The translations under genes were made by a program, and so were the position numbers. From a virus, in the IMG/VR virus record IMGVR_UViG_3300021375_000013, positions 1 to 64,000 of that record: DNA of 64,000 nucleotides. The stretch is one strand, 5' to 3'. Within the stretch, counting starts at the first letter, position 1; the number at the start of each line of letters is the position of its first letter. The notes under the pieces are model-generated. The model was not told the DNA's origin. It did no database searches and was given only the letters and a program-made list of their open reading frames with translations. Below are positions 1 to 17,244 of this stretch, piece after piece.

Positions 1-1
1 T

Positions 2-121
2 CAATACGCTAGTGGTTCGAAAGAAATTAGAATGATATTTAATGAAGATATCACAAGAGTACCATTGGAAGTACCAACAGACGCATTTACAATTAAAGGT
101 AAAATAGTAGAAATAGAATAA
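2..121 (+). CDS. 3' end of upstream gene (partial), hypothetical
   Basis: Open frame from window start (QYASGSKEIRMIFNEDITRVPLEVPTDAFTIKGKIVEIE) ends in TAA at 119-121, 5 nt before the next ATG. Confidence 0.65.
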   Translation, partial: QYASGSKEIRMIFNEDITRVPLEVPTDAFTIKGKIVEIE

Positions 122-126
122 GCAAA

Positions 127-3100
127 ATGGCAAGATTAATATCCAGAAAACAAGTCGAAGAGATACAGGATTTTATTAAAGATACTTCCTTTGCACAGGG
201 TGTATCTATATCTGGTTCTTTGCTTGTATCACAAAGTTTTAATTTAGGTTCAGACCCAGATGAAAAATCTACTATAACTGGTTCAGTTGAACTTACTGGT
301 TCTCTTACCATTGATGGTGCACTTAATGTAGTTGGTGACCAAGCATTAGATTTAACATCATCCGTTTCATTAGAATCATTAGATTCTTTAAAATTCGGTG
401 GAATCAAACCTGAAGATTTCGGAGCAATGGATGCTACTCTTTATGTATCCTCAACTTCTGGTGATGATAACAATGATGGTAGAACACCACAATTTCCATT
501 AAGAACTGTAAAGAAAGCTGCTGAATTAGCAACTGCTGGAGATGATGGTAGATTTGGTTTACCAACTGGTTCTTTATTTACTGGTTTCCGAATTGAAGTA
601 GCTGCTGGTACTTATTTAGAACAAAACCCAATCGAACTTCCAAAGAATACAACTGTATGGGGAGCTGGTTTAAGGGTAACTAAGATTGTAGCTAAAAACG
701 AAAACGAAGATTTATTTTGGGTAAATAGTGGTTGTTACCTATCAGAGATGACATTTGCTGGATTGAGAGTATTTCCATCAGTAGATAACTCTCGAAGTGG
801 TTTCGCAATTGCATTTGCACCAAACTCATTTATTACAACATCTCCTTATGTTCAGAACTGTTCGATGATTTCGAATCAGGAGAACTCATTCTTAGAAGCA
901 TACGAAGCAATTCCTGCTGGTGGTGGTGGATTGAACGTAGATGGAAATATAATTCATCCTGATTCACCTCTTGCTTCAATGGTATTGGATGCATACACTC
1001 AGATTGCACCCAATGGAGTTGGTTGTCAAGTTGTTGGTAGAGGATTTATTCAGTTAGTATCGTTCTTTACAAACTTCTCAGCATATTCGGTAAAGGTATT
1101 ACAAGGTGGACAGGCAGTACTTCTAAACTCAAACACATCGTTTGGTGATTTTGGTATGTATGCTAGTGGTTCTAGATTTATTACTGGTAGTGGTGGTAAT
1201 ACTGAAGCATTTAATATTGTAAGAGATAACTATACAATTATTATTGATACTATCGAAGATGGTTTAACATCGATACCTGAATTCGTACCAAATACAAATG
1301 CTGGTGTTAAAGTAACAGATGCTTTGCAGCAATTTAGTAGTAACAAATCATCTGATAAAGTTGCAGAACAAGCAAAATCAGAATATAGATTAGTTTCAAA
1401 TATCGTATCAAGTGGTATAAGTAATATCCCATCTTTATTAGCTAAATCAGCAACAAGAGGATATAATACTGGTTCGGTTTGGAATGTATCAAATGGAACA
1501 CAAACAACAGGTTCAACATCAGCAACTTCTACTGAGTTAGCAATTATAGATGATAGATTTGATAAAGTTAAAAGAGTATTGGAGTTAGGTGCAAGAGCAA
1601 CTGCTAGTTATACTTTAGTAGATAATATTGAAGGGTTGGTAAAAGTTGGAAATTCTAATCCATACACTGGTTCAGATGCAACATCACAAATTGAAGTAGA
1701 TACAATAAATAGAAACTTTAATACAGTACTTCAAATAGTAGAATATGGATTAAATAATGAAGATTATCCATTACCAGCACTTACATCATCAAATGCTGCA
1801 AATATAAAGGTAACCGAAACACCTCAATATAATACTGATATTTCATCAAGTGCAGAAGTTGCTAACAAAGTATCTTCTTCATTCGCAACTGTTTTCAGAA
1901 TATTAGAATTAGGTTCAGATTATGCACCTACTATTGTTCAAAGCTCTTCATTTGAAAATCCATCGATTGATTATCAAAATGGGTATGATACTTTAATTGG
2001 TAACTTATCATTTATACAAAATGAAACAATTGCTTACTTATCATCTTCTTGGAGTGAATCTGATTACAATGAAGAAACTTGTAAAAGAGATATTGGATTT
2101 ATTGTAAATGGAGCAGCACATGATTTATTATATGGTGGTAATGAAGAATCAGTTTTAAATGGTAACTTCTACTACTTATATCCCTCAGAAGCAACAGCTT
2201 CACAAAAGCAAGAAACTTTAGATGCTATTAGATATGCTGGAGGACTTGCAGAAAATTTAGTAGGTGATATAACTTATGTAGAACCATCAGTAAATGTAGA
2301 AAATGGATATGACTTATTAGTAAATAATAAATCATTTATACAAAACGAAGTTATTTCATATGTATCATCTTCTTGGAGAGGATTTGAATATGATGAAGTA
2401 AAATGTAAAAGAGATGTTGGGCATGTTATTAATGCAGTAGCAACCGATTTAAGATATGGTGGTAATGAACGAAGTAGAATTGCTGGTGAGTTCTATTACC
2501 TATACCCTTCAACAGCTACAACAACACAATTATTACCAACATTGGATGGTATAGAATGGGCAAGGGATTTATCTAAAAAGTTAGTTGTAAAAGATACATT
2601 TGTAACGGCATCAGCTATCATCCAATCTACATATGATTTAATCGTTGAAAATAGAAGTTTAATTCAAGAAGAAACTGTAAACTTCATTGATACTCAGTTC
2701 CCTAATTTAGTTTATCTAAGAGATAAATGTAAAAGGGATACTGGATATATTGTAGATGCAGTTGCAACTGATTTATATTATGGTGGTAACCAAAAATCAG
2801 TTAGAGCTGGTTTATATTATAATGAGGTTCCTTCGAAAGTAAATGGAGACCAACTAAATGAAACAGTTGATGGTATTTCTTACGCTAAATCATTTATTGA
2901 TAAGGTAGTTGTTAATGAGATAGTAGAATCACCTGAAGTAATTAATAACACATATGCTAGAGTAAGAGTTGGCGATGTATTACAATATGTATCATCTTCT
3001 ATTTCTGGTAGTGAAACGGAAAGAGTTAAAGTAAGTTCTTCTTTCGGAATAGTTGAAGATATTATAAAGCAAGGTGAGGAATCATTATTATCTGCGATAG

Positions 3101-6100
3101 CTGGTAATACACCAAACTTTAAATGGACATTAGATGAGCCAAAATTAGTTAGTAACACAACATTAATAACATCATCAATATCAGCGAGTTCAGCTGATGT
3201 TCAATCTATTTCATCATCATTTGAAATAGTAACAAAAATTATTGAAAGTGGTAGTTCTATAAATACTGATAAAACAATAGGTTCTGCTTCAAATGGATTA
3301 CCAATATCACAAGTTGGTATTCCTAAAGATTCTTATGGTGATAATTTAATAACAACAACTATTGGAACTAAACTTCCAAACGATATAGTTGCTGTATCAA
3401 ATGTAAATAGTAATATTAAATTTACTAATAATGCACAATACTCATCTTCTATATCAGCATCTAACACAATTGCATCAGAGATTTCAGAATCATTTAGAAC
3501 TGTAATTGATATTGTTGAGTATGGTATTAGTGGAAGTAAAGAGATATCTGGTTCAGCTAATTCTTCATCTTATTTCGAAGTTATTACTTTACCAAATGAT
3601 TCAACTGCATTCTATATTAATGATGACCAATTAAAATACTTTGATGGTAGAGAAGGTTGGAGATTGGGTGGAGAAGATACTGGTTCATTCTTAGGTTCTA
3701 AAAAAGACCCAACTCTAACATTGGTTAGAAATGAAATGTACACATTCTCAATTAATGATTTAGGTTTTGAGGATACTACAATTGATGAACCATTCTTGAT
3801 TAAAACAAAACCAACTGCTGGAACTGTATATGATGTATATGAAAGTATTGGTTTGGTAAATAATGGTATTACATTTGGTACTATAACATTTACTCCTTTA
3901 ACTGATACACCAGATACACTTTATTATGTAAATCCAAACAACGCTTCAGCTAGTGGTGTGATAAACATCGTAGATAGTTTACCACTTTCATCGGAGCAGG
4001 AATTTGTTTATGTTCCAACTAGAGGTGAATTTGAAAAAGTAGTAAACACTAAAGATAATATAAAAATAACAACTGGTTCTCAATATACATCATCATTAGA
4101 TGCTAGTGTTTCTGATAGAAACATAGTAAGTGGAGGATTCAGTACAATAGTTGGTATTCTAAAAAGTGGAGTAGATTCATTTACACCAACTGCAGCAACT
4201 TATAATCCAGCTGATGGTGAATTTGTAATGACTGTTTCTCAACATGGTTTAGATGTTGGTGATAGAATTTACTTAAAGCCAGAATCATTCGTATTCACTT
4301 GTGATATGGATGGTAATAGAACTGAGCACAAATTACCTTCAGTTGGACAACCCGCATACAACAAACAATTAACTATAACTTCGATAACCGATGATACCAT
4401 AACTGTAAATGTTGGTAAATCAGGTCCGAATATAAACTTTAATACAACTAACGCAACTTATGACCCAGCAACTGGAGATTTCGTTGCAACTGTTGGGAAC
4501 CATACTTTAAGTGTTGGAGAAGGTATTGTACTTTCACCAGAATCATTTGCTTTCACTTGTGATATGGATAATGACCAATCAGTTAAATCTTATCCAAGAG
4601 TTGGTATTGACCCGTTTGCAGTTCGTTCTATTCCAATTACTTCTGTAACTGATACTACGTTAACATTTAATGTTGGAGCATCAGGTCCTAATAAGTATTT
4701 TACTCCTTCATCCGCATCTTATAATGCATTGACTGGTGATATGATTGTAACTGTTGGACAACATGGATTGGGAGTTGGGAGAAGTGTAGTATTGGAGGAT
4801 GAATCATTTGCATTCACTTGTGACCAAGATTCAGATGCAACAACTCATTCTTATCCAAGACCAGGTTCAGACCCATATGCTGGTAAATCGATAGAAATTA
4901 AATCGGTTGGAAATACTCAACATACACCAACAAATGCTCCTTATGATGCATCTACTGGAATTGTAACTTTAACTATCGCTGGACATGGATTTAGTAATGG
5001 AGATTATGTTAAAGTTGATGATGGAGCATTAACCTATACTTGTATATTGGATGGTAATACTGTTGAGAAATCTTATCCAAGAGCTGGATATGATTACCCA
5101 AGCGGAAGATGGTTAGAAATTTCAAACGTAACAACTGATACTTTTGATATTAACATTGGAGCATCTTCTTATAAATCAACACATACATTTGTATCTGCAA
5201 CTAATGGTGGTATAAGAAGGCAAACTGGTACATTTACAATTAATGTAGGAGATGGTGGAACGGCATCAAACTCTTTACACACATTTGTATCAGCTTCAGC
5301 AAACGCTGTAAAGCATGAACCACAATCAGTTCATACTTATGTATCTTCTTCAAATGGAGCTATTAAACATTTACCACAATCAACTCATACCTTTGTTAGA
5401 ACAAGCGAAGATTCGGTAAGTACTTTACCAATTCTAACTAAAAATATTGAAGGTTTGGTTAAAAGAAGTAATGCAACTCAATTTACTTCTTCACTAAGTG
5501 GTTCAGAAAACCTTATATCTAAGTTATCATCTTCGTTTGAAACTGTATTAGATATTATAGAATTTGGAACTGGTTCAACTCCAACAACTGCAACTTATGA
5601 CCCTGCGGATGGTGATTTCGTAATGACTATTCCAAATCACAAATTTAGAAAAGCAGATAGTATTTATCTAAAACCAGAATCATTTGTATTCACTTGTAAA
5701 ATGGATGATAATAAAACTGAACATAAATTACCTTCAGTTGGACAACCTGCTTACAATAGTAAATTAAGAATTAAATCGGTAACTGATAATACTGTAACTG
5801 TAAATGTTGGTAAATCGGGTCCAAATTTACATTTTAATCCTACTAACGCAACTTATGACCCAGCAACTGGTGATTTTGTAATTACAACTGGTACTCATAG
5901 TTTAAGTGTTGGTGAGGGGATTATATTAGATATTGAATCATTTGCATTCACTTGTGATATGGATGATGACCAATCAGTTAAATCTTACCCTCGATTGGGT
6001 ATAGACCCTTATGCTGGTCGTTCAATGATTATAACCGATGTTACTGATACTACAATGACTGTAAACGTTGGGGTATCGGGTCCAAACAAATACTTTACTC

Positions 6101-9100
6101 CATCGGATGTTAACTATAACGCATTGACTGGAGAAATGGTATTGACTGTAGGTCAACATGGGTTGGGTGTAAGTAGAAGTGTAGTATTAGAAAATGAATC
6201 AATTGCTTTCACTTGTGACCAAGATGGTGATTCATCTGTTCACTCTTACCCAAGAAGTGGTTCAGACCCATATGCAGAACAATCAATAGAAATTATTTCA
6301 GTTGGAACTACATCACATACTCCAACAAATGCACCATACAATCCAACAACTGGTATCGTAACACTCACAATCGCTAATCACGGATTCTCTAATAATGATT
6401 ATATAAAAGTTGATGATGGTGCATTAACTTATACTTGTGTTTTAGATGGAAACACAACTCAGAAATCTTATCCAAGAACTGGAATAGATTATCCATCTGG
6501 AAGATGGTTACAAATTTCAAATGTAACAACTGATACATTTGATATTAACATAGGTTCATCTTCTTACACTGGAGCTCATACATTTGTATCTGCTACAACT
6601 AATGGAATAAAAAGACAAGATGGTACATTTACAATTAATGTAGGGGATGCTGGTAGTGCTTCTGATTCAATTCATACATTCGTATCTGCATCAACAAATG
6701 CAGTGAAACACGAACCACAATCACTTCACACATTCGTATCAGCATCTAGAGAAGCAGTTAAACACCTACCACAATCAGTTCATACTTTTGTTAGAACTAT
6801 TGATGATTCGGTAACTGTAATTCCACCAAAAGTGGAAAATATTGAAGAAGCTATTTCTGTAACAACTGAAACTCAATATGTAACATCTTCTATATCTGCA
6901 TCGGCTGCAGATATCTCATTCATCTCAGAATCATTTGAGATTGTAACGAGAATTATAGAATTTGGTAGTGGTTCTTATGAATCATCATCATTATATGGTA
7001 GTGAGGTAACTGCATCATCAACTGTTGCGGCTTATAACTTATTAAAATCAAACATTGACTTTATAAAAGAAGAAACAATTTCATATTTAAGTTCTTCTTG
7101 GTCTGCTGCAGATTACAATGAGGCAAGTTGTAGTAGAGATATTGCTGGTATTGTTAGTGGAGCAGCTGAAGATTTAATTCACAATGTTTACTCAGCATCT
7201 ATATTCAATGGTAAGTTCTACTTAGAATATCCATCACAAGCACAAGGTTCACAATTAAACCAAACGTTGGATGGAATTAGATACGCAAGTAGAGTAGCAC
7301 AAAAAGTAGCATCGAATGTAACATTCTCAAATCCATCACAAGATAGATTAGATACGCAAACAATTATAAACAATAATAAAGAGTTTATCAAAGAAGAAGG
7401 AATTGCATTCCTATCAGCTTCTTGGAGTGATTTCGATTATCCAGAAGAAACTTGTAAAAGAGATATCGTACATATCTTAGATGCATCAATTACTGATATT
7501 GTTTATGGTGGTAATGAAAGAACAATTAATGCTGGTGTATTCTATTGGAAATATCCATCAGAAGCAACTGGTTCTCAATTGTTCCCAACTTTAGATGGTA
7601 TTGAATATGCTGGTGAAGTTGCACAAAAAGTAGTTAGTGGAGCAGTATTTACACCACCAACTTCTGATAAAGTAAATGCTTATAACTTAGTATTAGAAAA
7701 TAGAGATTTAATCCAAAATGAAGTAATAGAATATGTTTCATCTTCTTGGAACGCAGCTGATTACGATGATGTTAAATGTAAGAGAGATACTGGATACATT
7801 ATTGATGCAGCTATTACTGATTTACTATATGGTGGAAATGAAAGAAGTATAATAGCTGGAGATTTCTACTACAAATATCCATCACAAGCACAAGGTTCAC
7901 AATTAGACCAAACTGTTGATGGTATAGTTCACGCTCAAAGATTATCTGATAAGGTAATGAGTAATACTATATTAGTAAATCCATCAGTAGAAAGAGAAGG
8001 ATTATATCAAACGATAGAACAAAATAGAGAATTGGTTCAAGCTGAAGTAATTGCTTACATCTCATCTTCTTGGGTTGGGTTCGATTACGATGAAGCTAAA
8101 TGTAGTAGAGATGTTGGACACATCTTAGATGCAGTTTCAACTGACTTGAGATATGGTGGAAATGAAAGAAGTGTTATTGCTGGTGAGTATTATTACTTAT
8201 ATCCATCAGAAGCAACAAGTGTTCAAAAAACACAAACTATCGATGGTATCGTACATGCAGCTAACTTAGTTCAAAAACTTATTCAGAATGTTGTATTAGT
8301 ACAACCTTCAGAAACTAAACTAAGTATTTGGAATACAATTAGAGATAATAGAAGTTTAATTCAAAAAGAAGTAACTGAGTATATTGATTACGCATATCCA
8401 TTCTTTACATATAATAGAGAAAAGTGTAGAAGAGATGTTGGGCATATTTTAGATGGTGTTGCAACCGATTTCTTATGGGGTGGTAATCAAAGAAGTATTA
8501 AAGGTGGAGAATTCTATTACTTATTCCCATCTGAAGCAACTACTGTACAAAAAGATGAAACTATTGATGGTATTATGTACGCTAAGAATTTAGTTAGAGA
8601 TATAATTACACAACAAACATTATTATCTCCATCAAAGGTATCCAATACTGATGGAAACATTAAGGTAACATCTTTTGAGGCTGTAACATCTTCAATCGCA
8701 TTGAGTGGTTCATATCAAACTGAAGTTAGTGAATCATATGATATTGTAACTGGAATTATAAAAACAGGTATTGAATCATTCACACCTAAAACTGCAACTT
8801 ATGACCCTGCGAATGGTGATTTTGTAATGACTGTACCTAAACATAATCTATATAGTGGTGATAGTATCTATCTAAAACCTGAATCATTCACATTTACTTG
8901 TGAAATGGATGGTAATAGAACTGAACACAAACTTCCATCAGTTGGACAACCTGCTTATGATAATAGATTAACTATTAAATCAACAACATCAGATACTATA
9001 ACTGTAAACGTTGGTAAATCAGGTCCAAATGTAGAATACAACCCAACAACTGCATCATATGACCCAGCAACTGGAGAATTTGTTGTAACTGTGGCAAGTC

Positions 9101-12100
9101 ATAGTTTAAGTGTTGGTGAAGGTGTAGTTATGAAAGCTGAATCATTTGCATTTACTTGTGATATGGATAATGACCAATCGGTTAAATCATATCCAAGAGT
9201 AGGAATCGACCCATATTCAGTACGTTCAATTCCTCTAACGGCTGTAACTGATACTACAATGACATTTAATGTAGGAGCATCAGGTCCGAATAAATATTTC
9301 ACACCTGTATCTGCTTCTTACAATGCTCTAAGTGGAGATATGACTCTGACTGTTACCGAATCATTCGGATTGGGTGTTGGTAGAAGTGTGGTATTAGAAA
9401 ACGAATCATTCGCATTTACTTGTGACCAAGATTCAGATGCTACAATACATTCTTATCCAAGAAGTGGTTCAGACCCATACGCAGAACAATCAATTGTAAT
9501 TACTTCAGTTGGTACAACTTCACATAGTGTAACTGATGCACCATATGATTCTGCAACTGGTGATGTAACTATAACAATCGTATCACATGGATTTAGTAAT
9601 GGAGATTACATCAAATTAGATGATAATTCTCTAACTTATACTTGTGTATTAGATGGTAATACAACTACAAAATCTTACCCAAGACCTAATTACGATTATC
9701 CAAGTGGAAGATGGTTAGAAATTTCTAATGTAACAACTAACACATTCGATATCAATATAGGTTCTTCACCATATGTAGGTTCACATACATTTGTATCAGC
9801 AACTACTAATGGATTAGAAAGACAAAATGGAACATTTACAATTAATGTTGGTAATGGTGGAAGTGCTTCTGGTTCTTTACACACATTCGTATCAGCATCT
9901 AATAGAGCAGTAAAACATGAACCTCAATCAGTTCATACTTTTGTATCAGCTTCAAATGGTGCATTGAAACACTTACCTCAATCAGCTCATACATTTATTA
10001 GAACTGATAGAGATTCAGTAAGTACATTACCTGTATTAACTGAAAGCATTGAAGGGTTAATTAAAATAAATGATACAACTCAATTTACTTCTTCTTTAAG
10101 TGGTAGTGTGGTTGAATCAGCATTTGTAACTCGAAGTGTAGGATTTATCAATGATATTATCAGATTAGGAACTGATGATATTCCTTTCGCATTAGCAAAA
10201 TGGTACGATGATACATTGGATACTCCACAACAATTAACAACGGGTTCTTATACTCAAATAGTTGGACCTACATTGGATTCAGAATACAACAATGGTTCAA
10301 TTATATCTTTAACTGGTGATGGTAGTAATTTCTTCAAAAAAGAAGTTACGGTCAATGGTGTAAGAATTGTTGTAGCCGGTGATGTTGGTGGACAAACTGC
10401 TGTACCTGATACATTTACTGAGAAAGTTGCTCGTATGTTTGAATTATTTACTGACCCAAGTGGTTCGGGAATAAATGAAACATTCCAAAGAAATTTAATT
10501 AAAACATTAAGTGGTGATAGTGGAACTTACCACGCTGGATTACCAACTATACAAAGAGTAGCAAGAGGAGCTGGAAGTGATTATACTCCAAACTTCCTTG
10601 ATGATGCTGGTATTTTATATTGGAACTTAACAAACTTGTTTGATACTCATGTACAAAACGATATGGTTTGGTATCTAAACTCAACAGGTGATATATCTGG
10701 TTCTGGTGATATAGATGCACAAGAAGTAATTGAACACATATTCCACACATTACATATGCATGGTTTACCTGCAGATGATATAAAACTATATTCTTATTTG
10801 GCATCTGATTGGCAGACTGGTGATTTATATCTTGCAATGGAAGAGGCATATGATGCTGGATTGTGGGATTCATCGGGATATGGTGGTAATAGTTGGAAAA
10901 CTGATTCTGATGCATTTGAGGTAGCTGCTAAAGAATATCTATATTTGTTAAACTTCGCAATGTTTGAATATACCGATTTATGGGAAAATGGAAGTCTTTC
11001 TCCTGAGTGGGATGATTCAATGAGAACACAAGCTGGAATTTTAGCAAATAACCCATTAGGTTATGCATTCCATAACACATATATTTCACCTACAATTAGT
11101 AAACCATCATTGGCAACTATTAGAAGTATATTCCAAGATGGTGATTTGGGTGACCCAACAATAGCAGGTGAATCTGGATATGTTGTAACTCCAACTGGAA
11201 CTTATACAACTGATACTGAATTTGGTATCGTAAGTTCATCATTTGGTCAAATTATTAATATCATCGAAAATGGTGTTGATACATTCACACCAACCACAGC
11301 AACTTATGACCCATCAAATGGAAACTTTGTAGTTACTATTCCAAATCATACTTTAGATATTGGAGATGAGATTTATATAAGACCAGAATCGTTTACATTT
11401 ACTTGTACGATGGATGGAAATAAAACTGAACACAAATTACCTTCAGTTGGACAACCTGCTTATGATAATAAATTAGAGATAACATCAAAAACTGATGATA
11501 CTATAACTGTAAATGTGGGAGCATCGGGTCCTGATGTTGAATGGACTCCATCTAACGCAACTTATGACCCCGCTACTGGTGATTTTGTAATTACAACTGG
11601 AACTCACACATTAAGTGTTGGGGAAGGTATCGTATTAGATACTGGTTCATTTGCATTTACTTGTGATATGGATAACAATCAATCAACTAAATCTTACCCT
11701 AGATTTGGAATTGACCCATACGCTGGACGTTCAATGAAACTTACTTCGGTAACTTCAAATACAATGACTGTAAATGTTGGAGCATCAGGTCCGAATAAAT
11801 ATTTCACACCTGTATCTGCTTCATATAACGCTCTAAGTGGAGATATGACTCTGACTGTTTCTGAATCATTTGGATTAGGAATCGGAAGAAGTGTAGTATT
11901 AGAAAACGAATCTATCGCATTCACTTGTGATATGGATAGTAACTTAACTACTCACTCATACCCAAGAAGTGGTTCAGACCCATACGCAGAACAATCAATT
12001 GTAATTACTTCAGTTGGAAAAACTCAACATACACCAACAGACGCTCCATATAATTCAGCAACTGGTGATGTTATTATCACAATTGCTAATCACGGATTTA

Positions 12101-15100
12101 GTAATGGTGATTATATTAAGATTTCTGATAACGGATTATCTTACACTTGTATATTAGATGGAAATAAAGTTAAAAAATCATATCCAAGACCTGGTTATGA
12201 TTATCCATCTGGAAGATGGTTACCAATTTCTAATGTAACTACAAATACATTCAAAATTAATATAGGAACTTCATCATATGTTGGAGAACACACATTCGTA
12301 TCAGCAGAACAAAATAGTATTGAAAGACAAACTGGTATATTTACAATTAACGTAGGAGATGCTGGAAGTGCTTCTGGTTCTTTACACACATTCGTATCAG
12401 CATCAGCAAACGCTGTTAAGCATGAACCTCAATCAGCACATACATTTGTATCTGCATCTAAGGGAGCAGTTAAACATTCACCTCAAGCAGGTCATACTTT
12501 TGTTAGAACTGAAAATAATTCAATAAGTGTTTTACCAGCGGTTGTAAATAATACTGAAAACAATATTAAAGTAACTAATACAAATCAATTTACTTCTTCT
12601 ATTATTGGTTCTATAACTGAAGTTAATAAAGTAAAATCATCAATTGGTATAATTGAAGATATATTACAAAATGGTACGTCTGTTAAACCAAACGTAGTTA
12701 AGAACAACTCTGATAAAAATAACTTAATTAAAGTTACTGATGCAGTTCAAATTACATCAGAATCATTTGGAGATAGATTACAACAAAGATTGATTTCATC
12801 ATCAATTGCAATCGTAACTACAATTGTTGAAAACGGAACTGGTTCACTACCAACTGTTGTTGAGTATGGAACTCCTTCCGATTCTCCAAAAACATTAGCA
12901 GCTTATAACTTATTAAAAGATAACATTGAATTTATCCAAAGTGAAAGTATCGCTTATTTATCATCTTCTTGGTCAACTGCATCTTACAATGAAACGAGTT
13001 GTAGTAGAGATATTGGGGCAATTATAAGTGGAGCAGCTGAAGATATGTTGTATAACGCAAACTCTTCATCTATATTCAATGGTAAGTTCTACTATGATTT
13101 CCCATCTAAAGCACAGGGTGCACAATTACAACAAACATTAGATGGTATTAACTACGCTGGTAGATTGGCAGAAAGTATCGTAAGAGGATATACATTCCAA
13201 ACTGCATCTGCAGTAGTTAGTGGTTCTTATGAATTAATTAGAAACAATAGAGAATTTATTGAAAATGAAACAATTGAATTCTTATCATCTTCTTGGGATG
13301 GATTTACTTACAATGAAATAACTTGTAAAAGAGATATTACTCACATTATAGATGCAGTATCAACTGACCTTCTTTATGGTGGTAACGAAAGAAGTGTAAA
13401 CGCTGGTGATTACTATTACAGATTCCCATCAGCAGCTATTACTGGTGGTGTTCCAAATGAAGATAGACAAAAAGACCCAACTGTAACTGCTATTGATTAT
13501 GTACAAAATATAGTAACTGAAATAGTAAGTGGGGCTGTTTTCCAAACTGCATCAAATGAGGTTGAATTTGTTTATGATACAATCAGAGAAAATAGAGCAT
13601 TCTTACAAGCTGAAACTGTTGCATTTGTAAACGCTAAATATCCAAACTTTGATTATAACGAAGCAAGTTGTAGTAGAGATACTGGATTTATTATTGATGC
13701 TGTTGCTACTGATTTAAGATATGGTGGAAACCAAAGAGCATTAACTGCTGGTGAATTCTATTATAGATTCCCATCTGAAGCAACTGGTAACCAATTAGAT
13801 GAAACAACTGATGCATTAATCTATACTAAAGATTTAATTGAAAAATTAGTTAACAAAGAAACATTATTTATTCCAACTGGAAGTTTGAATACTGATAATG
13901 GAATTAAAGTAACTTCATTCTCACCAGCAACTGGTAGTAGTATAACTGATGTTACTATTCTTAACACAATTTCATCTTCATTCTCAATTGTATCAGATGC
14001 AATCGCTAATGGAACGGGTTCAACACCAACTTCATCTAATTATGGAGCAGTTTCTACTGATTCAGATATCCTAACTACTTATGGATTGATTACTGAAAGT
14101 GTACCATTTATTCAAAATGAGGTTGTTGCTTATATTTCATCATCTTGGGTAGGATTTGATTACAATGAAGCTAGTTGTAGTAGAGATGTTGGATTTATAG
14201 TAAATGGCGTAGCAGAAGATTTAAGATACGGAATTGTATCAGCATCTTCAGTAAATGCTAGATATTATTATCAATTCCCATCTGAGGCTAATGGAACTGG
14301 TTCTCAAGCTCAACAAACTATTGATGGTATCAATTACGCAGCACAATTAACTGAACAAATCGTTAAAGGTGTAACATTTGATTTCCCATCAACTCAAATA
14401 TCAGCATCAGTTGAATTAATTAGAAATAATAGAGAGTTTATTCAATCTGAATCTATTTCTTACCTAAGTTCATCTTGGGAAGGGTTTGATTATGTAGAAG
14501 CAACTTGTATGAGAGATGTTGGACATATTTTAGATGCAGTATCTACTGATTTACTTTATGGTGGTAACCAAAGAAGTAAAATTGCAGGAGAATACTACTA
14601 CAAATATCCTTCATCAGCAACATCAACTCAATTAGAACCAACTACAACAGGTATTAAGTACGCGGGTGATGTGGCAAGTAAATTAGTACAAAACGAAATA
14701 TTCGTAACGGCATCGGCTGAAAGATTAGCTGGTAATAAAGTTCTTTTAGATAACAAAGAATTTATCCAAAATGAAGTAATTGCATATATTTCTTCTTCTT
14801 GGAGTACATTTGATTACAATGAGGATAAATGTAAGAGAGATACTGGTTATATCTTAAATGGTGTAGCAACTGACTTCTTATATGGTGGTAATGAAAGAAG
14901 TAGAGTAAATGGTGAATACTATTACCTATATCCATCGGATGCAACTGTTAATTTCCAAACTAATCCAAATGGACAATTGAATCAAACAATTGATGGAATT
15001 AACTATTCAGCAAGATTGGCTGAAAAAGTGTTGGAAAATACAACATTTGTTACCGCATCTACCGAAGTATCTGCATCGGCTGAATTACTAAGAAATAATA

Positions 15101-16350
15101 GAAGTTTCGTACAAAATGAAACAATTGAATTTATCTCATCTTCTTGGAGTAATGTAAAATATAATGAAGATAAATGTAGAAGAGATACTGGATACATTAT
15201 AGATGCAGCAGTTACTGATTTAGTATATGGTGGTAATGAAAGAAGTATTAATGCAGGATTGTACTATTGGAGATATCCTTCAAGAGCAACAAATGCTGGA
15301 ACACCTTCAGAACAAAATCAATTAGACCCGACTGTTGATGGAATCAGATTCGCAAATGGAACTTCACAAAATGTAGTTCAGAATCTACCATATACAACTC
15401 CATCAGCTGATATTAAAAATGGTGTAAAATTATTAAGAGATAATACAACATTTATACAAAAAGAAACAATAGCTTATCTAAGTTCGTCTTGGAGTGAGTT
15501 TGAATACAATGAAGTTAGTTGTAGTAGAGATTTAGGATACATAATTGATGCTGTTGCTACCGATTTAACATATGGTGGTAATGAAAGAGCAGTTCAAGCG
15601 GGTACTTTCTACTACTATATTCCTTCAATAGCAACTACGGAGCAAAAACCACAAACAACTGATGGTATTGATTTCTCTAAAGGGTTGGCTGAGAAGATAA
15701 TCAAACAACAACAATTAGTATTCCCAGCATTCTTAAATAATAATGGGGCTACTGCTCTTAGAAACGCTAAGAAAGTATTACAAGGTAAAGCAATATCGTA
15801 CACAAACGCTGCTTTCCCTAACTTTATATACAATGAAGAAAAATGTTATAGAGATACTGGTTTCATTGTAGATGCTATCGTAACTGATATCATTTATGGT
15901 GGTAACGAAAGAAGTATCAGAGCAGCTGAATCTTACTACACTGGTGTGTATGGAAGTGCGGCTGTGGTTATAAACGAACAAAAGAAAGAAACGGCAGAAA
16001 CTAATAGATATCTAAGAACACAATTCCAATTTGTTGCTAGACAAGCACCGGTTGAAGAATTTGGTTCTTTGATTATTACAACTGGACATGATTTCTCTTA
16101 CGCAGGTGCTGGTGTAACTTATAAAGCATTACCTCCTAACCAAGGTGGTGATGGTATACCTGATCCTGATAAAGAAATTACTGAAATTGGTGGTGGTAGA
16201 GTATTCTTTACTTCTGGTAACGAACTTGGTGACTTTAGAATCGGTGGAGGTCTTGTTATTAAACAAGCATCTGGTACTTTAGAAGGTAGGACATTCTCTC
16301 GTTCACTATTCTCACTTGTAACACCATTCTCATTAGCACTGCAAGATTAA
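127..16350 (+). CDS. Giant (5407 aa) repeat-built virion structural/fibre protein with N-terminal beta-helix-like domain
   Basis: Uninterrupted ORF. N-terminal YVSSTSGDDNNDG..PLRTVKKA..VAAGTYLE motif is typical of pectin-lyase-like phage structural proteins. Contains 17 CxRD helical repeats, four beta cassettes and a zincin-like insert. Confidence 0.85.
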   Translation: MARLISRKQVEEIQDFIKDTSFAQGVSISGSLLVSQSFNLGSDPDEKSTITGSVELTGSLTIDGALNVVGDQALDLTSSVSLESLDSLKFGGIKPEDFGAMDATLYVSSTSGDDNNDGRTPQFPLRTVKKAAELATAGDDGRFGLPTGSLFTGFRIEVAAGTYLEQNPIELPKNTTVWGAGLRVTKIVAKNENEDLFWVNSGCYLSEMTFAGLRVFPSVDNSRSGFAIAFAPNSFITTSPYVQNCSMISNQENSFLEAYEAIPAGGGGLNVDGNIIHPDSPLASMVLDAYTQIAPNGVGCQVVGRGFIQLVSFFTNFSAYSVKVLQGGQAVLLNSNTSFGDFGMYASGSRFITGSGGNTEAFNIVRDNYTIIIDTIEDGLTSIPEFVPNTNAGVKVTDALQQFSSNKSSDKVAEQAKSEYRLVSNIVSSGISNIPSLLAKSATRGYNTGSVWNVSNGTQTTGSTSATSTELAIIDDRFDKVKRVLELGARATASYTLVDNIEGLVKVGNSNPYTGSDATSQIEVDTINRNFNTVLQIVEYGLNNEDYPLPALTSSNAANIKVTETPQYNTDISSSAEVANKVSSSFATVFRILELGSDYAPTIVQSSSFENPSIDYQNGYDTLIGNLSFIQNETIAYLSSSWSESDYNEETCKRDIGFIVNGAAHDLLYGGNEESVLNGNFYYLYPSEATASQKQETLDAIRYAGGLAENLVGDITYVEPSVNVENGYDLLVNNKSFIQNEVISYVSSSWRGFEYDEVKCKRDVGHVINAVATDLRYGGNERSRIAGEFYYLYPSTATTTQLLPTLDGIEWARDLSKKLVVKDTFVTASAIIQSTYDLIVENRSLIQEETVNFIDTQFPNLVYLRDKCKRDTGYIVDAVATDLYYGGNQKSVRAGLYYNEVPSKVNGDQLNETVDGISYAKSFIDKVVVNEIVESPEVINNTYARVRVGDVLQYVSSSISGSETERVKVSSSFGIVEDIIKQGEESLLSAIAGNTPNFKWTLDEPKLVSNTTLITSSISASSADVQSISSSFEIVTKIIESGSSINTDKTIGSASNGLPISQVGIPKDSYGDNLITTTIGTKLPNDIVAVSNVNSNIKFTNNAQYSSSISASNTIASEISESFRTVIDIVEYGISGSKEISGSANSSSYFEVITLPNDSTAFYINDDQLKYFDGREGWRLGGEDTGSFLGSKKDPTLTLVRNEMYTFSINDLGFEDTTIDEPFLIKTKPTAGTVYDVYESIGLVNNGITFGTITFTPLTDTPDTLYYVNPNNASASGVINIVDSLPLSSEQEFVYVPTRGEFEKVVNTKDNIKITTGSQYTSSLDASVSDRNIVSGGFSTIVGILKSGVDSFTPTAATYNPADGEFVMTVSQHGLDVGDRIYLKPESFVFTCDMDGNRTEHKLPSVGQPAYNKQLTITSITDDTITVNVGKSGPNINFNTTNATYDPATGDFVATVGNHTLSVGEGIVLSPESFAFTCDMDNDQSVKSYPRVGIDPFAVRSIPITSVTDTTLTFNVGASGPNKYFTPSSASYNALTGDMIVTVGQHGLGVGRSVVLEDESFAFTCDQDSDATTHSYPRPGSDPYAGKSIEIKSVGNTQHTPTNAPYDASTGIVTLTIAGHGFSNGDYVKVDDGALTYTCILDGNTVEKSYPRAGYDYPSGRWLEISNVTTDTFDINIGASSYKSTHTFVSATNGGIRRQTGTFTINVGDGGTASNSLHTFVSASANAVKHEPQSVHTYVSSSNGAIKHLPQSTHTFVRTSEDSVSTLPILTKNIEGLVKRSNATQFTSSLSGSENLISKLSSSFETVLDIIEFGTGSTPTTATYDPADGDFVMTIPNHKFRKADSIYLKPESFVFTCKMDDNKTEHKLPSVGQPAYNSKLRIKSVTDNTVTVNVGKSGPNLHFNPTNATYDPATGDFVITTGTHSLSVGEGIILDIESFAFTCDMDDDQSVKSYPRLGIDPYAGRSMIITDVTDTTMTVNVGVSGPNKYFTPSDVNYNALTGEMVLTVGQHGLGVSRSVVLENESIAFTCDQDGDSSVHSYPRSGSDPYAEQSIEIISVGTTSHTPTNAPYNPTTGIVTLTIANHGFSNNDYIKVDDGALTYTCVLDGNTTQKSYPRTGIDYPSGRWLQISNVTTDTFDINIGSSSYTGAHTFVSATTNGIKRQDGTFTINVGDAGSASDSIHTFVSASTNAVKHEPQSLHTFVSASREAVKHLPQSVHTFVRTIDDSVTVIPPKVENIEEAISVTTETQYVTSSISASAADISFISESFEIVTRIIEFGSGSYESSSLYGSEVTASSTVAAYNLLKSNIDFIKEETISYLSSSWSAADYNEASCSRDIAGIVSGAAEDLIHNVYSASIFNGKFYLEYPSQAQGSQLNQTLDGIRYASRVAQKVASNVTFSNPSQDRLDTQTIINNNKEFIKEEGIAFLSASWSDFDYPEETCKRDIVHILDASITDIVYGGNERTINAGVFYWKYPSEATGSQLFPTLDGIEYAGEVAQKVVSGAVFTPPTSDKVNAYNLVLENRDLIQNEVIEYVSSSWNAADYDDVKCKRDTGYIIDAAITDLLYGGNERSIIAGDFYYKYPSQAQGSQLDQTVDGIVHAQRLSDKVMSNTILVNPSVEREGLYQTIEQNRELVQAEVIAYISSSWVGFDYDEAKCSRDVGHILDAVSTDLRYGGNERSVIAGEYYYLYPSEATSVQKTQTIDGIVHAANLVQKLIQNVVLVQPSETKLSIWNTIRDNRSLIQKEVTEYIDYAYPFFTYNREKCRRDVGHILDGVATDFLWGGNQRSIKGGEFYYLFPSEATTVQKDETIDGIMYAKNLVRDIITQQTLLSPSKVSNTDGNIKVTSFEAVTSSIALSGSYQTEVSESYDIVTGIIKTGIESFTPKTATYDPANGDFVMTVPKHNLYSGDSIYLKPESFTFTCEMDGNRTEHKLPSVGQPAYDNRLTIKSTTSDTITVNVGKSGPNVEYNPTTASYDPATGEFVVTVASHSLSVGEGVVMKAESFAFTCDMDNDQSVKSYPRVGIDPYSVRSIPLTAVTDTTMTFNVGASGPNKYFTPVSASYNALSGDMTLTVTESFGLGVGRSVVLENESFAFTCDQDSDATIHSYPRSGSDPYAEQSIVITSVGTTSHSVTDAPYDSATGDVTITIVSHGFSNGDYIKLDDNSLTYTCVLDGNTTTKSYPRPNYDYPSGRWLEISNVTTNTFDINIGSSPYVGSHTFVSATTNGLERQNGTFTINVGNGGSASGSLHTFVSASNRAVKHEPQSVHTFVSASNGALKHLPQSAHTFIRTDRDSVSTLPVLTESIEGLIKINDTTQFTSSLSGSVVESAFVTRSVGFINDIIRLGTDDIPFALAKWYDDTLDTPQQLTTGSYTQIVGPTLDSEYNNGSIISLTGDGSNFFKKEVTVNGVRIVVAGDVGGQTAVPDTFTEKVARMFELFTDPSGSGINETFQRNLIKTLSGDSGTYHAGLPTIQRVARGAGSDYTPNFLDDAGILYWNLTNLFDTHVQNDMVWYLNSTGDISGSGDIDAQEVIEHIFHTLHMHGLPADDIKLYSYLASDWQTGDLYLAMEEAYDAGLWDSSGYGGNSWKTDSDAFEVAAKEYLYLLNFAMFEYTDLWENGSLSPEWDDSMRTQAGILANNPLGYAFHNTYISPTISKPSLATIRSIFQDGDLGDPTIAGESGYVVTPTGTYTTDTEFGIVSSSFGQIINIIENGVDTFTPTTATYDPSNGNFVVTIPNHTLDIGDEIYIRPESFTFTCTMDGNKTEHKLPSVGQPAYDNKLEITSKTDDTITVNVGASGPDVEWTPSNATYDPATGDFVITTGTHTLSVGEGIVLDTGSFAFTCDMDNNQSTKSYPRFGIDPYAGRSMKLTSVTSNTMTVNVGASGPNKYFTPVSASYNALSGDMTLTVSESFGLGIGRSVVLENESIAFTCDMDSNLTTHSYPRSGSDPYAEQSIVITSVGKTQHTPTDAPYNSATGDVIITIANHGFSNGDYIKISDNGLSYTCILDGNKVKKSYPRPGYDYPSGRWLPISNVTTNTFKINIGTSSYVGEHTFVSAEQNSIERQTGIFTINVGDAGSASGSLHTFVSASANAVKHEPQSAHTFVSASKGAVKHSPQAGHTFVRTENNSISVLPAVVNNTENNIKVTNTNQFTSSIIGSITEVNKVKSSIGIIEDILQNGTSVKPNVVKNNSDKNNLIKVTDAVQITSESFGDRLQQRLISSSIAIVTTIVENGTGSLPTVVEYGTPSDSPKTLAAYNLLKDNIEFIQSESIAYLSSSWSTASYNETSCSRDIGAIISGAAEDMLYNANSSSIFNGKFYYDFPSKAQGAQLQQTLDGINYAGRLAESIVRGYTFQTASAVVSGSYELIRNNREFIENETIEFLSSSWDGFTYNEITCKRDITHIIDAVSTDLLYGGNERSVNAGDYYYRFPSAAITGGVPNEDRQKDPTVTAIDYVQNIVTEIVSGAVFQTASNEVEFVYDTIRENRAFLQAETVAFVNAKYPNFDYNEASCSRDTGFIIDAVATDLRYGGNQRALTAGEFYYRFPSEATGNQLDETTDALIYTKDLIEKLVNKETLFIPTGSLNTDNGIKVTSFSPATGSSITDVTILNTISSSFSIVSDAIANGTGSTPTSSNYGAVSTDSDILTTYGLITESVPFIQNEVVAYISSSWVGFDYNEASCSRDVGFIVNGVAEDLRYGIVSASSVNARYYYQFPSEANGTGSQAQQTIDGINYAAQLTEQIVKGVTFDFPSTQISASVELIRNNREFIQSESISYLSSSWEGFDYVEATCMRDVGHILDAVSTDLLYGGNQRSKIAGEYYYKYPSSATSTQLEPTTTGIKYAGDVASKLVQNEIFVTASAERLAGNKVLLDNKEFIQNEVIAYISSSWSTFDYNEDKCKRDTGYILNGVATDFLYGGNERSRVNGEYYYLYPSDATVNFQTNPNGQLNQTIDGINYSARLAEKVLENTTFVTASTEVSASAELLRNNRSFVQNETIEFISSSWSNVKYNEDKCRRDTGYIIDAAVTDLVYGGNERSINAGLYYWRYPSRATNAGTPSEQNQLDPTVDGIRFANGTSQNVVQNLPYTTPSADIKNGVKLLRDNTTFIQKETIAYLSSSWSEFEYNEVSCSRDLGYIIDAVATDLTYGGNERAVQAGTFYYYIPSIATTEQKPQTTDGIDFSKGLAEKIIKQQQLVFPAFLNNNGATALRNAKKVLQGKAISYTNAAFPNFIYNEEKCYRDTGFIVDAIVTDIIYGGNERSIRAAESYYTGVYGSAAVVINEQKKETAETNRYLRTQFQFVARQAPVEEFGSLIITTGHDFSYAGAGVTYKALPPNQGGDGIPDPDKEITEIGGGRVFFTSGNELGDFRIGGGLVIKQASGTLEGRTFSRSLFSLVTPFSLALQD
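1975..16035 (+). repeat. 17 copies of a ~100-aa helical repeat (N..FIQ.E...Y.SSSW..F.YNE.KC.RD.G.I.DAV.TDL.YGGN.RS...G..YY.YPS.A....T.DGI.YA) in four clusters (~1975-2910, ~7025-8610, ~12895-13855, ~14075-16035)
   Basis: CxRD motifs counted in the translated ORF: 3+5+3+6. Confidence 0.9.
4180..12525 (+). repeat. Four ~1240-nt (~410 aa) beta-rich cassettes (~4180-5420, ~5575-6815, ~8780-10025, ~11285-12525)
   Basis: Each has four related units (TYDPATG..H....G....L..ESF.FTC..D......YPR...DP) followed by four HT(F/Y)V(S/R) segments; nucleotide identity between copies is high. Confidence 0.9.
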
Positions 16351-16383: not shown

Positions 16384-17244
16384 ATGGCAGAAGAATTAAT
16401 ACCACTAAATGCATTTAAATCCGTACTTACCACTTTAACAGGTGATAATGATGTAGTTTATTCAGCTCCTAAAGGAGTTTCAACTATTTTATTATCAGCT
16501 CAGATAACAAATACGGGTAATACAAACGAACCCGTTACTATTAGTATGACTAGTAACAGAGAGTTACCAGTACCACAAGTAGATTCAATTAGTAATGCTG
16601 GAAACTTTATAAGCGCATCGGCACTTATAGCAAAAAACCAAACTTTTATTGAAAAAGAATCTGCTGCTTATATTAATTTTCAAAATAACTTACAACAAAT
16701 TCCGTTTAGTTTTACATCTTCCTTTTTTGAAGGGTATGTAAGAACTGCGGTAGATGGGGTTGAAGCAGATTTAATAGCAGGGGGAACATTACAATCTAAA
16801 AAAGCCGCTCTTTCTTTTTACAATAAGAATGGAGAAAGCTTAATTATTAGTGATTATTACACTTCATCATATCAATCAATAGATTACGCCAGTAAATTAG
16901 TAGAACAAATACTTATTAATGAATCTGTAACAGGTTCAACTGATGTAGCTAGATTATATCAAGACACGGTAACGCAATCCATAGATAATACTCTTTTAGC
17001 AGAGACAGGTTCAATATCAGCATCGATTGATTTATTCAATGCTATATCTGAAACCATATCAAATCCAACAAGAGTTGAACAAGCACCAGTTGATTTAATT
17101 ACGAATGTAACTATACCAGCTGGAGATTCATTATCGCCGATTGTAGCAGGTAAATTAGTATTAGAACAACAATTTTCATTAATTGTATCAGGTTCTACAA
17201 ATTTAACTGTAATATTATCGATTCTTGAAAGTGCAAACGAATAA
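16384..17244 (+). CDS. Virion adaptor-type protein (paralogue of 30234-30566) with an inserted helical repeat
   Basis: N-term NAFKS..VYSAP..STILLSAQITN and C-term IPAGDSL...KLVLE....V....LTVILSILE match the 110-aa protein; the middle resembles a Cys-less CxRD repeat. Confidence 0.75.
   Translation: MAEELIPLNAFKSVLTTLTGDNDVVYSAPKGVSTILLSAQITNTGNTNEPVTISMTSNRELPVPQVDSISNAGNFISASALIAKNQTFIEKESAAYINFQNNLQQIPFSFTSSFFEGYVRTAVDGVEADLIAGGTLQSKKAALSFYNKNGESLIISDYYTSSYQSIDYASKLVEQILINESVTGSTDVARLYQDTVTQSIDNTLLAETGSISASIDLFNAISETISNPTRVEQAPVDLITNVTIPAGDSLSPIVAGKLVLEQQFSLIVSGSTNLTVILSILESANE

What the first reader, a model, noticed from the sequence alone, without database searches (positions are those of the whole stretch)
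4180..12525. Matryoshka cassettes: four beta-domains nested one inside another and closed in reverse order
Seen: each cassette opens four homologous units. Only unit 4 is complete (...TFDINIG..HTFVSA). It is followed by the missing ends of the others in reverse order: TFTINVG..HTFVSAS (unit 3, which had stopped before its T.T.NVG strand), then PQS.HT(F/Y)VS (unit 2), then PQS.HTFVRT (unit 1). The whole cassette sits at the G..S^LP junction of the scaffold's helical linker repeat. Inference: the chain runs out and back, building a four-domain side arm that projects from the scaffold with both ends at its base. One polypeptide would make a branched, antenna-like appendage with four arms. Each unit also has a conserved FTC Cys and His residues that could bind metal.
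Basis: partly seen in the sequence, partly recalled or inferred. Interest (0 to 1): 0.8.

Follow-up and report, generated by a model that had tools for sequence, protein, structure and literature searches.

The report
Self-nested beta-barrel arms on phage fibre
A 5,407-residue fibre-type protein of a large marine phage carries four side arms, each most likely made of four copies of one small beta-barrel domain inserted inside one another like Russian dolls, a rare protein build known from cyanobacterial RNA polymerase that I found no paper describing for virus fibres.

Summary

- **The gene.** ORF 127-16350 (+) encodes a 5,407-aa tail-fibre-type protein. It holds four cassettes of about 430 aa that are 72-76% identical.
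- **Sequence evidence.** Against a 92-position profile of the complete, contiguous unit, units 1 and 2 match positions 1-80 and unit 3 matches 1-68/71. Unit 4 matches 1-92. The next segment supplies positions 68-92, and two further HTFV strands follow.
- **Structure evidence.** AlphaFold2 on cassette 1 gave pLDDT 92.8. Single beta-barrel domains from the PDB (72-85 aligned residues) align to nested model ranges: 252-356 inside 178-388 inside 91-406 inside 4-425.
- **Homologues.** They hold contiguous single units, arms 2, 3, 6 and 7 levels deep, sibling insertions and further insertion loops. Token strings parse as a nested grammar far more often than shuffled strings.
- **Fold.** The unit resembles the E1 FCCH and endosialidase beta-barrels (Z 8.0-8.8). 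It stays below Pfam thresholds.
- **Untested.** Metal binding by the invariant Cys and His, the oligomeric state, the geometry of arm and scaffold, and the function.
- **Precedent.** Recursive insertion is known in cyanobacterial RNA polymerase Si3.
- **Earlier notes.** This scan has already noted the same build on several other phage genomes.

The parts
127..16350 (+). Giant fibre-type structural protein, 5,407 aa
   Evidence: ORF list and translation. PHROG 5342 'tail fiber protein': E 3e-50 for the N-terminal part and 6.5e-96 for cassette 1.
4159..5454 (+). Cassette 1 (the arm that was modelled), with short flanks
   Evidence: Alignment A1. AF2 model ma650c02e6d77, pLDDT 92.8.
4180..4428 (+). 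Cassette 1, unit 1 opening part (core plus T.T.NVG strand; lacks the HTFV strand)
   Evidence: Matches unit profile positions 1-80 of 92. Boundaries.
4429..4689 (+). Cassette 1, unit 2 opening part (core plus T.T.NVG strand)
   Evidence: Matches profile positions 2-80. The VIA range for unit 2 starts at model residue 91.
4690..4911 (+). Cassette 1, unit 3 opening part (core only; stops before T.T.NVG)
   Evidence: Matches profile positions 1-68. The VIA range starts at residue 177/178.
4912..5226 (+). Cassette 1, unit 4, complete and contiguous barrel (the tip of the arm)
   Evidence: Matches profile positions 1-91. VIA range 252..355/356; Z 8.0 to the UBA1 FCCH domain and 7.8 to the phi92 endosialidase barrel.
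5227..5322 (+). Cassette 1, closing piece of unit 3 (TFTINVG ... HTFVSAS)
   Evidence: Matches profile positions 68-91. The unit 3 VIA range ends at residue 387-390.
5323..5376 (+). Cassette 1, closing strand of unit 2 (PQSVHTYVSS)
   Evidence: Motif. The unit 2 VIA range ends at residue 405/406.
5377..5433 (+). Cassette 1, closing strand of unit 1 (PQSTHTFVRT), then return to the scaffold (..STLP)
   Evidence: Motif. The unit 1 VIA range is 4..425.
5554..6849 (+). Cassette 2. Segments: U1a 5578-5823, U2a 5824-6084, U3a 6085-6306, U4 6307-6621, U3b 6622-6717, U2b 6718-6771, U1b 6772-6828
   Evidence: 75% identical to cassette 1. Segment map by alignment. Same profile coverage pattern.
8758..10056 (+). 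Cassette 3. Segments: U1a 8779-9027, U2a 9028-9288, U3a 9289-9513, U4 9514-9828, U3b 9829-9924, U2b 9925-9978, U1b 9979-10035
   Evidence: 76% identical to cassette 1. Segment map. Profile coverage.
11263..12561 (+). Cassette 4. Segments: U1a 11284-11532, U2a 11533-11793, U3a 11794-12018, U4 12019-12333, U3b 12334-12429, U2b 12430-12483, U1b 12484-12540
   Evidence: 72% identical to cassette 1. Segment map. Profile coverage.

Best explanation
**What it is.** Each cassette of about 430 aa is one continuous stretch of chain. It folds into four six-stranded beta-barrels of one family, which resembles the E1 FCCH and endosialidase barrels. The four units are 34-54% identical to each other.

**How the chain runs.** The barrels are recursively inserted into each other's loops.
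- Unit 2 sits between the T.T.NVG strand and the last (HTFV) strand of unit 1.
- Unit 3 sits at the same loop of unit 2.
- Unit 4 sits one loop earlier in unit 3, before its T.T.NVG strand.
The chain therefore runs outward through three unfinished barrels, completes the tip barrel, and on the way back supplies the missing strands in the order 3, 2, 1. Both ends of the arm lie on barrel 1.

**Consequence.** The cassette is spliced between two consecutive linker repeats (G..S^LP). The arm must therefore stand off the scaffold, and the scaffold chain continues from the same point. This step is inferred.

**Function (inferred, low confidence).** The four arms are stiff rod-like bristles of FCCH-type decoration domains on a giant fibre. 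They would give weak multivalent adhesion or reach towards the host surface. The invariant Cys, the closing-strand His, and the His and Asp kept in 90-93% of units may form a clasp, possibly a metal site, that locks each discontinuous barrel.
For: **Shown:**
- Motif order and four-fold repetition.
- Complementary profile coverage: 1-80 for units 1 and 2 (1-90 for unit 2 of cassettes 3 and 4), 1-68/71 for unit 3, 1-92 for unit 4, then 68-92.
- AF2 model with pLDDT 92.8 and pTM 0.84.
- Nested single-domain structural alignments: 252-356 inside 178-388 inside 91-406 inside 4-425. Each covers 72-85 residues at rmsd 2.3-3.9 A, against contiguous target domains of 74-103 residues.
- A second AF2 model, of a homologue arm with a different insertion loop (pLDDT 88.4), again gives nested ranges 186-293, 85-399 and 1-416.
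- Homologues hold contiguous units with core, T.T.NVG strand and HTFV strand. They also hold a depth-2 arm and a 7-unit arm with seven closing strands, and an 8-unit arm.
- Grammar test on 120 homologous proteins: of 109 arms with equal counts of cores, T.T.NVG strands and HTFV strands, 104 parse as nested units. The figure is 1.9% after shuffling and 4.2% when the T.T.NVG tokens are re-placed at random.

**Fold:**
- UBA1 FCCH Z 8.0-8.8, phi92 endosialidase barrel Z 7.8.
- Recurrent sub-threshold Pfam hits: E1_FCCH in 19 of 54 units, End_beta_barrel in 5 of 54.
- The nearest Pfam-bearing cluster in the ESM Atlas is E1_FCCH.

**Conservation over 1,335 distinct cores:** Cys 100%, His 93%, Asp 90%. 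The closing-strand His is invariant in 54 contiguous units.
Against: - Strand-by-strand pairing and the distance between Cys and His were not checked, and VIA reports only the first and last aligned residue.
- Only a monomer was modelled. Fibres are usually trimers, and inter-chain completion of barrels is not excluded.
- In the second model, the unit split after its first hairpin did not appear as a range of its own.
- Many arms in the grammar test are homologous copies, not independent cases. 120 of 229 arms did not have equal token counts under the crude tokeniser.
- Variability is even along the arm, with no hypervariable tip. This gives no support for a receptor-specific tip.
- Fold Z scores of about 8 are middling by the tool's own calibration.
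Confidence: 0.82

Rival explanations
1. Beads on a string plus a cap. Four sequential barrels fold from contiguous sequence, and the four HTFV segments form their own small beta-sheet domain at the end of the cassette.
For: The closing strands are adjacent in sequence and similar to each other. A simple 'all cores first, then all HTFV strands' order would also give balanced counts.
Against: - Domain-sized PDB barrels align across ranges of 210, 315 and 421 residues with only 72-85 aligned.
- Units 1-3 lack exactly those profile positions that the later pieces supply.
- In homologues, HTFV strands are interspersed with new cores, and the T.T.NVG strand turns up exactly after the inner unit closes.
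Confidence: 0.04
2. Nested in sequence but swapped in space. In a trimeric fibre, the returning strands complete barrels of neighbouring chains, giving an intertwined trimeric arm rather than three independent arms.
For: Phage fibres are typically trimers with intertwined chains (established knowledge of T4 gp37 and gp12). No multimer prediction was available here.
Against: - The monomer model is very confident without partners.
- FCCH-type barrels fold as monomeric decoration domains on tail tubes (PMC13576161).
- Short two-stranded connectors between units (DSSP) favour intrachain return.
Confidence: 0.1
3. Prediction artefact. AlphaFold forces repeated motifs into barrels, and the true structure is different, for example a beta-helix or a triple-stranded fibre.
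For: The alignment for model 2 had only 7 sequences. No experimental structure of any homologue was found.
Against: - Two independent models agree.
- The nesting is predicted independently by sequence homology to contiguous units and by the grammar test.
Confidence: 0.04

Closest known systems
Si3 insertion of cyanobacterial RNA polymerase beta' (RpoC2): recursively inserted sandwich-barrel hybrid motifs
   Same: One small beta domain is inserted recursively into copies of itself, so several domains are discontinuous in sequence and the module is elongated. PMC10895346 reports that SBHM-2 to -5 contain elements from distant parts of the chain. PMC13114784 reports a six-level recursive insertion.
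   Different: The fold family differs: FCCH-like closed barrel here, SBHM/HABAS there. The protein context differs: a virion fibre rather than a polymerase trigger loop. Here the module is repeated four times per protein, and its depth, branching and insertion loop vary freely among homologues.
E1 FCCH domain (Pfam PF16190), and FCCH-type decoration domains on siphophage tail-tube proteins
   Same: Six-stranded closed beta-barrel. This is the best structural match: Z 8.0-8.8, rmsd 2.3-2.4 A, 75-78 residues, 14-23% identity. FCCH is itself an inserted domain in UBA1 (my own recollection). In phage tail tubes it faces outward as a decoration (PMC13576161).
   Different: The sequence match stays under Pfam's threshold: 13.9 bits against a cut-off of 29.5, best E 0.0035. 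I found no known FCCH domain described as hosting another FCCH domain.
Beta-barrel domain of phage endosialidases (Pfam PF12195; phi92 endosialidase 4hiz residues 255-340)
   Same: A small barrel inserted into another domain of a phage tail-spike. Z 7.8, rmsd 2.2-2.3 A, 79-80 residues. 5 of 54 units give weak PF12195 hits.
   Different: It is a single copy inserted in a beta-propeller, with no self-nesting. Its sugar-binding role, which I recall from the endoNF literature, was not tested for these units.
T4 gp37 long-tail-fibre tip
   Same: A fibre part in which the chain runs out to a tip and back, with His residues lining the structure. This comes from established knowledge, not from a test here.
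   Different: gp37 is an intertwined trimeric needle with HxH iron sites. Here the parts are monomer-foldable barrels with a single His per strand. No sequence or structural match appeared in any search.

Membership tests
Recursive (nested) domain-insertion architecture, A1-B1-C-B2-A2 type | A host domain is discontinuous in sequence and is interrupted by a complete guest domain | tested here: met
   Unit profile coverage is 1-68 followed by 68-92 around a complete unit. The VIA range 178..388 has about 80 aligned residues and encloses 252..356.
Recursive (nested) domain-insertion architecture, A1-B1-C-B2-A2 type | The guest is itself a host (two or more levels) | tested here: met
   Four nested ranges in model 1 and three in model 2. 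Depth 6-7 was read by hand in homologues.
Si3 / SBHM (HABAS) family of RNA polymerase beta' | Units have the sandwich-barrel hybrid motif fold or are homologous to it | tested here: inconclusive
   No SBHM or RNA polymerase chain appears among the 50 listed VIA rows of either model, and there are no Pfam hits. The listed matches are FCCH, FNR-like and elongation-factor barrels.
E1_FCCH (PF16190) | [quoted passage not shown] | tested here: met
   4p22_B and 9mc4_A: Z 8.0 (model 1) and 8.8 (model 2), rmsd 2.3-2.5 A, 75-78 aligned residues. By the tool's own calibration, Z near 8 is only middling.
E1_FCCH (PF16190) | Sequence score above Pfam's gathering threshold | tested here: not met
   Window unit 4 scores 13.9 bits against a cut-off of 29.5. 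19 of 54 units hit, with best E 0.0035. The PDB profile search found nothing relevant.
End_beta_barrel (PF12195) | Sequence or fold match to the endosialidase barrel | tested here: inconclusive
   Fold Z 7.8 to 4hiz_A residues 255-340. Only 5 of 54 units give weak hits, best E 0.015.
Phage tail-fibre proteins (PHROG 5342 / 4527) | Significant profile match to families annotated as tail fibre, and a fibre or tail gene neighbourhood | tested here: met
   phrog_5342 E 6.5e-96 on cassette 1. Downstream lie two more giant fibre proteins, a tail-fibre assembly protein, the tail sheath and a baseplate hub. The annotation is by name only; presence in the virion was not tested.
Phage tail-fibre proteins (PHROG 5342 / 4527) | Trimeric assembly | not testable with these tools
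   Only monomer prediction is offered.
Metal-binding structural site (Cys/His) | Conserved ligand set | tested here: met
   Cys 100%, His 93% and Asp (C-x-x-D) 90% of 1,335 cores. The closing-strand His is invariant in 54 contiguous units.
Metal-binding structural site (Cys/His) | Ligands within bonding distance, and metal present | not testable with these tools

The most novel reading that the evidence does not exclude
The FCCH-like barrel is a self-inserting building block with at least three permissive loops. Across this phage protein family, one chain would then build tree-shaped (dendritic) arms of 1 to 13 or more barrels, six to seven levels deep, with sibling branches. Each discontinuous barrel would be locked by a metal clasp between the invariant core Cys (with the nearby His and Asp) and the invariant His of its returning strand. 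The arms would act as multivalent sugar-binding bristles that enlarge the capture radius of the virion.
Probability: 0.3. Interest if true: 0.8.

Novelty: new variant of a known kind. Interest (0 to 1): 0.62.

Why it matters
The cassette shows a natural way to build a stiff rod or tree from one chain whose two ends lie together. Such a module can be spliced into any loop of a larger protein without breaking it.

It gives protein-evolution and protein-design work a second family that tolerates recursive self-insertion, independent of RNA polymerase Si3. This family offers hundreds of natural variants differing in depth, branching and insertion loop.

For phage biology, it explains a large share of the unannotated sequence in the giant fibre genes that are shared among marine cyanophage-type viruses. 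It also makes the shape of those fibres testable.

Tried and rejected
**Searches that found nothing usable**
- Pfam on the whole protein gave nothing above threshold.
- Sequence searches of the PDB, with the cassette and with the unit profile, gave no relevant hit.
- Foldseek of the whole model against the PDB returned only generic strings of Ig/FN3 domains at TM about 0.1. I rejected these as shape matches.
- Foldseek against BFVD returned only other cyanophage giant proteins.
- Six literature searches found no description of this build in phage fibres.

I obtained divergent cassettes through the search for related loci instead.
- Model coordinates are not placed in the script box, so no contact map could be made.

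**Method caveats**
- A first regex tokeniser for cores was too loose: 0 of 121 proteins came out balanced. I replaced it with an HMM for the cores and position-weight matrices (PSSMs) for the strands.
- The pattern 'ONOONHONHNHH' looked at first like two sibling units. Reading the sequence showed a unit split after its first hairpin, so tokeniser topologies are approximate.

**Ideas not supported**
- I looked for a hypervariable tip as a sign of receptor binding and found none.
- I first assumed the phage belongs to Kyanoviridae. The tail sheath does not support this.
Full report
**The gene and its setting**

The finding lies wholly within one ORF, 127-16350 on the + strand, which encodes a 5,407-aa protein. 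Pfam finds nothing above threshold. PHROGs places the N-terminal part, the cassette and the C-terminal part in families annotated as tail fibre or virion structural protein. Phrog_5342 scores E 6.5e-96 on one cassette.

Downstream lie two more giant fibre proteins with collagen-like parts, a tail-fibre assembly protein, the tail sheath (40856-43156) and a baseplate hub. After those come T4-type replication and recombination genes.

The sheath is closest to Microcystis phage Mel-JY01, at 48% amino-acid identity. It is only about 35% identical to the sheaths of Synechococcus phages S-SKS1 and S-B05. Close homologues of the giant protein sit on contigs of 238-258 kb. The virus is therefore a large T4-superfamily marine myovirus of unknown host. 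It is not a typical T4-like cyanophage (family Kyanoviridae), although it shares the cassette with 319 cyanophage records.

**The observation**

Four cassettes of about 430 aa are 72-76% identical to each other.

I built a profile of 54 complete, contiguous units, using the fourth units of cassettes and single-unit arms of homologues (A3, 92 positions). I then scanned all six frames of the window with it. In every cassette:
- unit 1 matches profile positions 1-80/81. Unit 2 matches 1/2-80 in cassettes 1 and 2, and was reported as 1-90 in cassettes 3 and 4;
- unit 3 matches positions 1-68/71;
- unit 4 matches positions 1-91/92;
- the next segment matches positions 68/69-91/92.
Two further HTFV strands follow this segment. 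No unit occurs anywhere else in the window.

The cassette is flanked by G-x-x-(S/F) on one side and (L/I)P on the other. An uninterrupted linker repeat further on in the same protein reads ENGTGSLPTVV. The cassette therefore sits exactly at the boundary between two linker repeats.

**The structural test**

I collected 66 non-redundant four-unit cassettes, 47-95% identical to the query, from viral contigs. I aligned them with the four window copies (A2) and folded cassette 1. The result was mean pLDDT 92.8 and pTM 0.84.

VIA-align against 48,161 PDB chains returned single beta-barrel domains that align to four nested model ranges:
- 252..355/356. UBA1 FCCH: Z 8.0, rmsd 2.4-2.5 A, 75-76 residues. 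Phi92 endosialidase residues 256-339: Z 7.8.
- 177/178..387/390. For example 6l2u_B, a 103-residue FAD-binding barrel with 85 residues aligned.
- 91..405/406. 9jlf_E residues 16-96 with 79 aligned; also 8qq5_A, 7wuo_A and 9n71_B.
- 4..425. 5i4q_C residues 209-298 with 72 aligned.

A contiguous target domain of 74-103 residues that aligns across 210, 315 or 421 model residues must skip the middle. The model therefore has four barrels. Three of them are discontinuous and are closed in the order 4, 3, 2, 1.

DSSP adds two consistent details. Long paired strands at 244-255 and 352-362 lie where unit 4 leaves and re-enters unit 3. Short strands at 92-94 with 402-404, and at 179-181 with 384-386, lie where the chain passes between units.

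**Evidence from relatives**

Homologues show the same unit in other arrangements.
- Contiguous single units with core, T.T.NVG strand and HTFV strand occur in other scaffold positions.
- P0115 has a two-unit arm with two closing strands.
- P0078 has seven cores followed by exactly seven HTFV-type strands. The order fits 1[2[3[4][5[6[7]]]]].
- L219 shows eight units nested seven deep.
- L161 shows two sibling units inside one loop.
- L119, L253 and L257 show a unit split after its first hairpin, and in L257 a split at a further loop.

I tokenised cores with an HMM, and the T.T.NVG and HTFV strands with position-weight matrices, in 120 homologous giant proteins. This gave 229 arms, of which 109 had equal counts of the three tokens. 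Of those 109, 104 parse under the rule 'unit = core, [units], T.T.NVG strand, [units], HTFV strand'. After shuffling the figure is 1.9%, and with randomly re-placed T.T.NVG tokens it is 4.2%.

Many of these arms are homologous copies, and the tokeniser fails in the most divergent proteins. The numbers are therefore indicative rather than a probability.

A second AF2 model, of the L119 arm, used only 7 sequences and reached pLDDT 88.4. It again gave nested ranges: 186..293, 85..399 and 1..416. The hairpin-split unit did not show up as a range of its own.

The number of cassettes per protein varies from 1 to 7 among close relatives.

**What the unit is**

- The best structural matches in both models are the FCCH domain of ubiquitin-activating enzyme E1 (Z 8.0-8.8) and the inserted beta-barrel of phage endosialidase (Z 7.8). 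Behind them come FNR-type FAD-binding barrels, elongation-factor domain 2 and several phage tail proteins.
- Sub-threshold Pfam hits recur over the 54 units: DUF7243 in 24, E1_FCCH in 19 and End_beta_barrel in 5.
- The nearest Pfam-bearing cluster in the ESM Atlas is E1_FCCH, made up mostly of viral proteins.
- FCCH-type barrels are known as outward-facing decoration domains on siphophage tail tubes (PMC13576161).
- A profile search of 1.84 billion representative proteins found only 731 with the unit, nearly all with several copies. The family is narrow.

I file the unit as FCCH-like by fold. It is not a member of PF16190 by sequence.

**Conserved residues**

Over 1,335 distinct cores, the Cys of FTC is 100% conserved. 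The His after the first hairpin is kept in 93%, the Asp of C-x-x-D in 90%, and the Y-P-R motif in 86-100%. The His of the closing strand is invariant in the 54 contiguous units.

A Cys/His/Asp/His clasp between the core and the returning strand is an attractive explanation. Neither the geometry nor any metal was tested.

**Function**

Variability is even along the arm, with no hypervariable tip. I therefore favour a structural or generic-adhesion role, as stiff lateral bristles of decoration-type barrels, over a specific receptor-binding tip. This is inference only.

That the arm projects sideways follows from both of its ends lying on barrel 1 and from its position between linker repeats. The shape of the scaffold and the oligomeric state are unknown.

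**Comparison and novelty**

Recursive self-insertion is described for the Si3 region of cyanobacterial RNA polymerase beta'. That region has eight SBHM domains, four of them discontinuous (PMC10895346). It is described as a six-level nest (PMC13114784).

The present case uses a different fold and sits in a virion fibre. It is repeated four times in one protein and varies combinatorially among relatives. Six literature searches found no description of it in phage fibres.

Earlier notes of this scan describe the same build in giant fibre or gp7 proteins of other phage genomes. My tests were run independently and agree with them.

Noticed in passing
window 40856-43156: The tail sheath is closest to Microcystis phage Mel-JY01 (48% aa), an uncultured 484-kb phage (44%) and Flavobacterium phage immuto (41%). 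It is only about 35% identical to the sheaths of Synechococcus phages S-SKS1 and S-B05. Yet the fibre cassette is 55-64% identical to cassettes of Synechococcus phages. Fibre modules therefore seem to be shared across distinct myovirus lineages.
   Followed up: partly
L119:343-1590, L253:148-1407, L257:151-1389: Homologue arms use other insertion loops. One unit is split right after its first hairpin (..TVAGHGI | complete unit | AVKLDDGSITFSC..). In L257 a unit also appears split after YPRP. The barrel thus tolerates insertion at three or four loops.
   Followed up: partly
L161 frame 0, aa 22-660: Two complete units lie in tandem inside one loop of a host unit (HTFQNA..NNTYTATG|ATYTPSTG..). 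This is true sibling branching, not only linear nesting.
   Followed up: partly
homologues P0002-P0033, P0117-P0120: The number of four-unit cassettes per protein ranges from 1 to 7 among close homologues (mostly 72-95% identical). This points to frequent gain and loss of whole arms.
   Followed up: no
window about 1975-16035 (helical repeats between the cassettes): Several homologues carry precomputed Pfam PF00502 (phycobilisome protein) hits. Other notes of this scan read the C-x-R-D helical repeats as phycobiliprotein-like. Not examined here.
   Followed up: no
window 10060-11300: The non-repetitive segment of about 410 aa between cassettes 3 and 4 has no PHROG match at E 0.001. Another first-stage note calls it zincin-like.
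   Followed up: no
window 58111-59643: An ORF of 510 aa matches the PHROG 2928 tryptophan halogenase family over its full length (E 2.4e-106).
   Followed up: no
window 16384-17244: The small ORF directly after the giant gene gives weak hits to phrog_1276 (E 3e-05) and to phrog_4527, a 'short tail fiber' family that also matches the giant protein's N-terminal, inter-cassette and C-terminal regions (E 5.3e-05).
   Followed up: no
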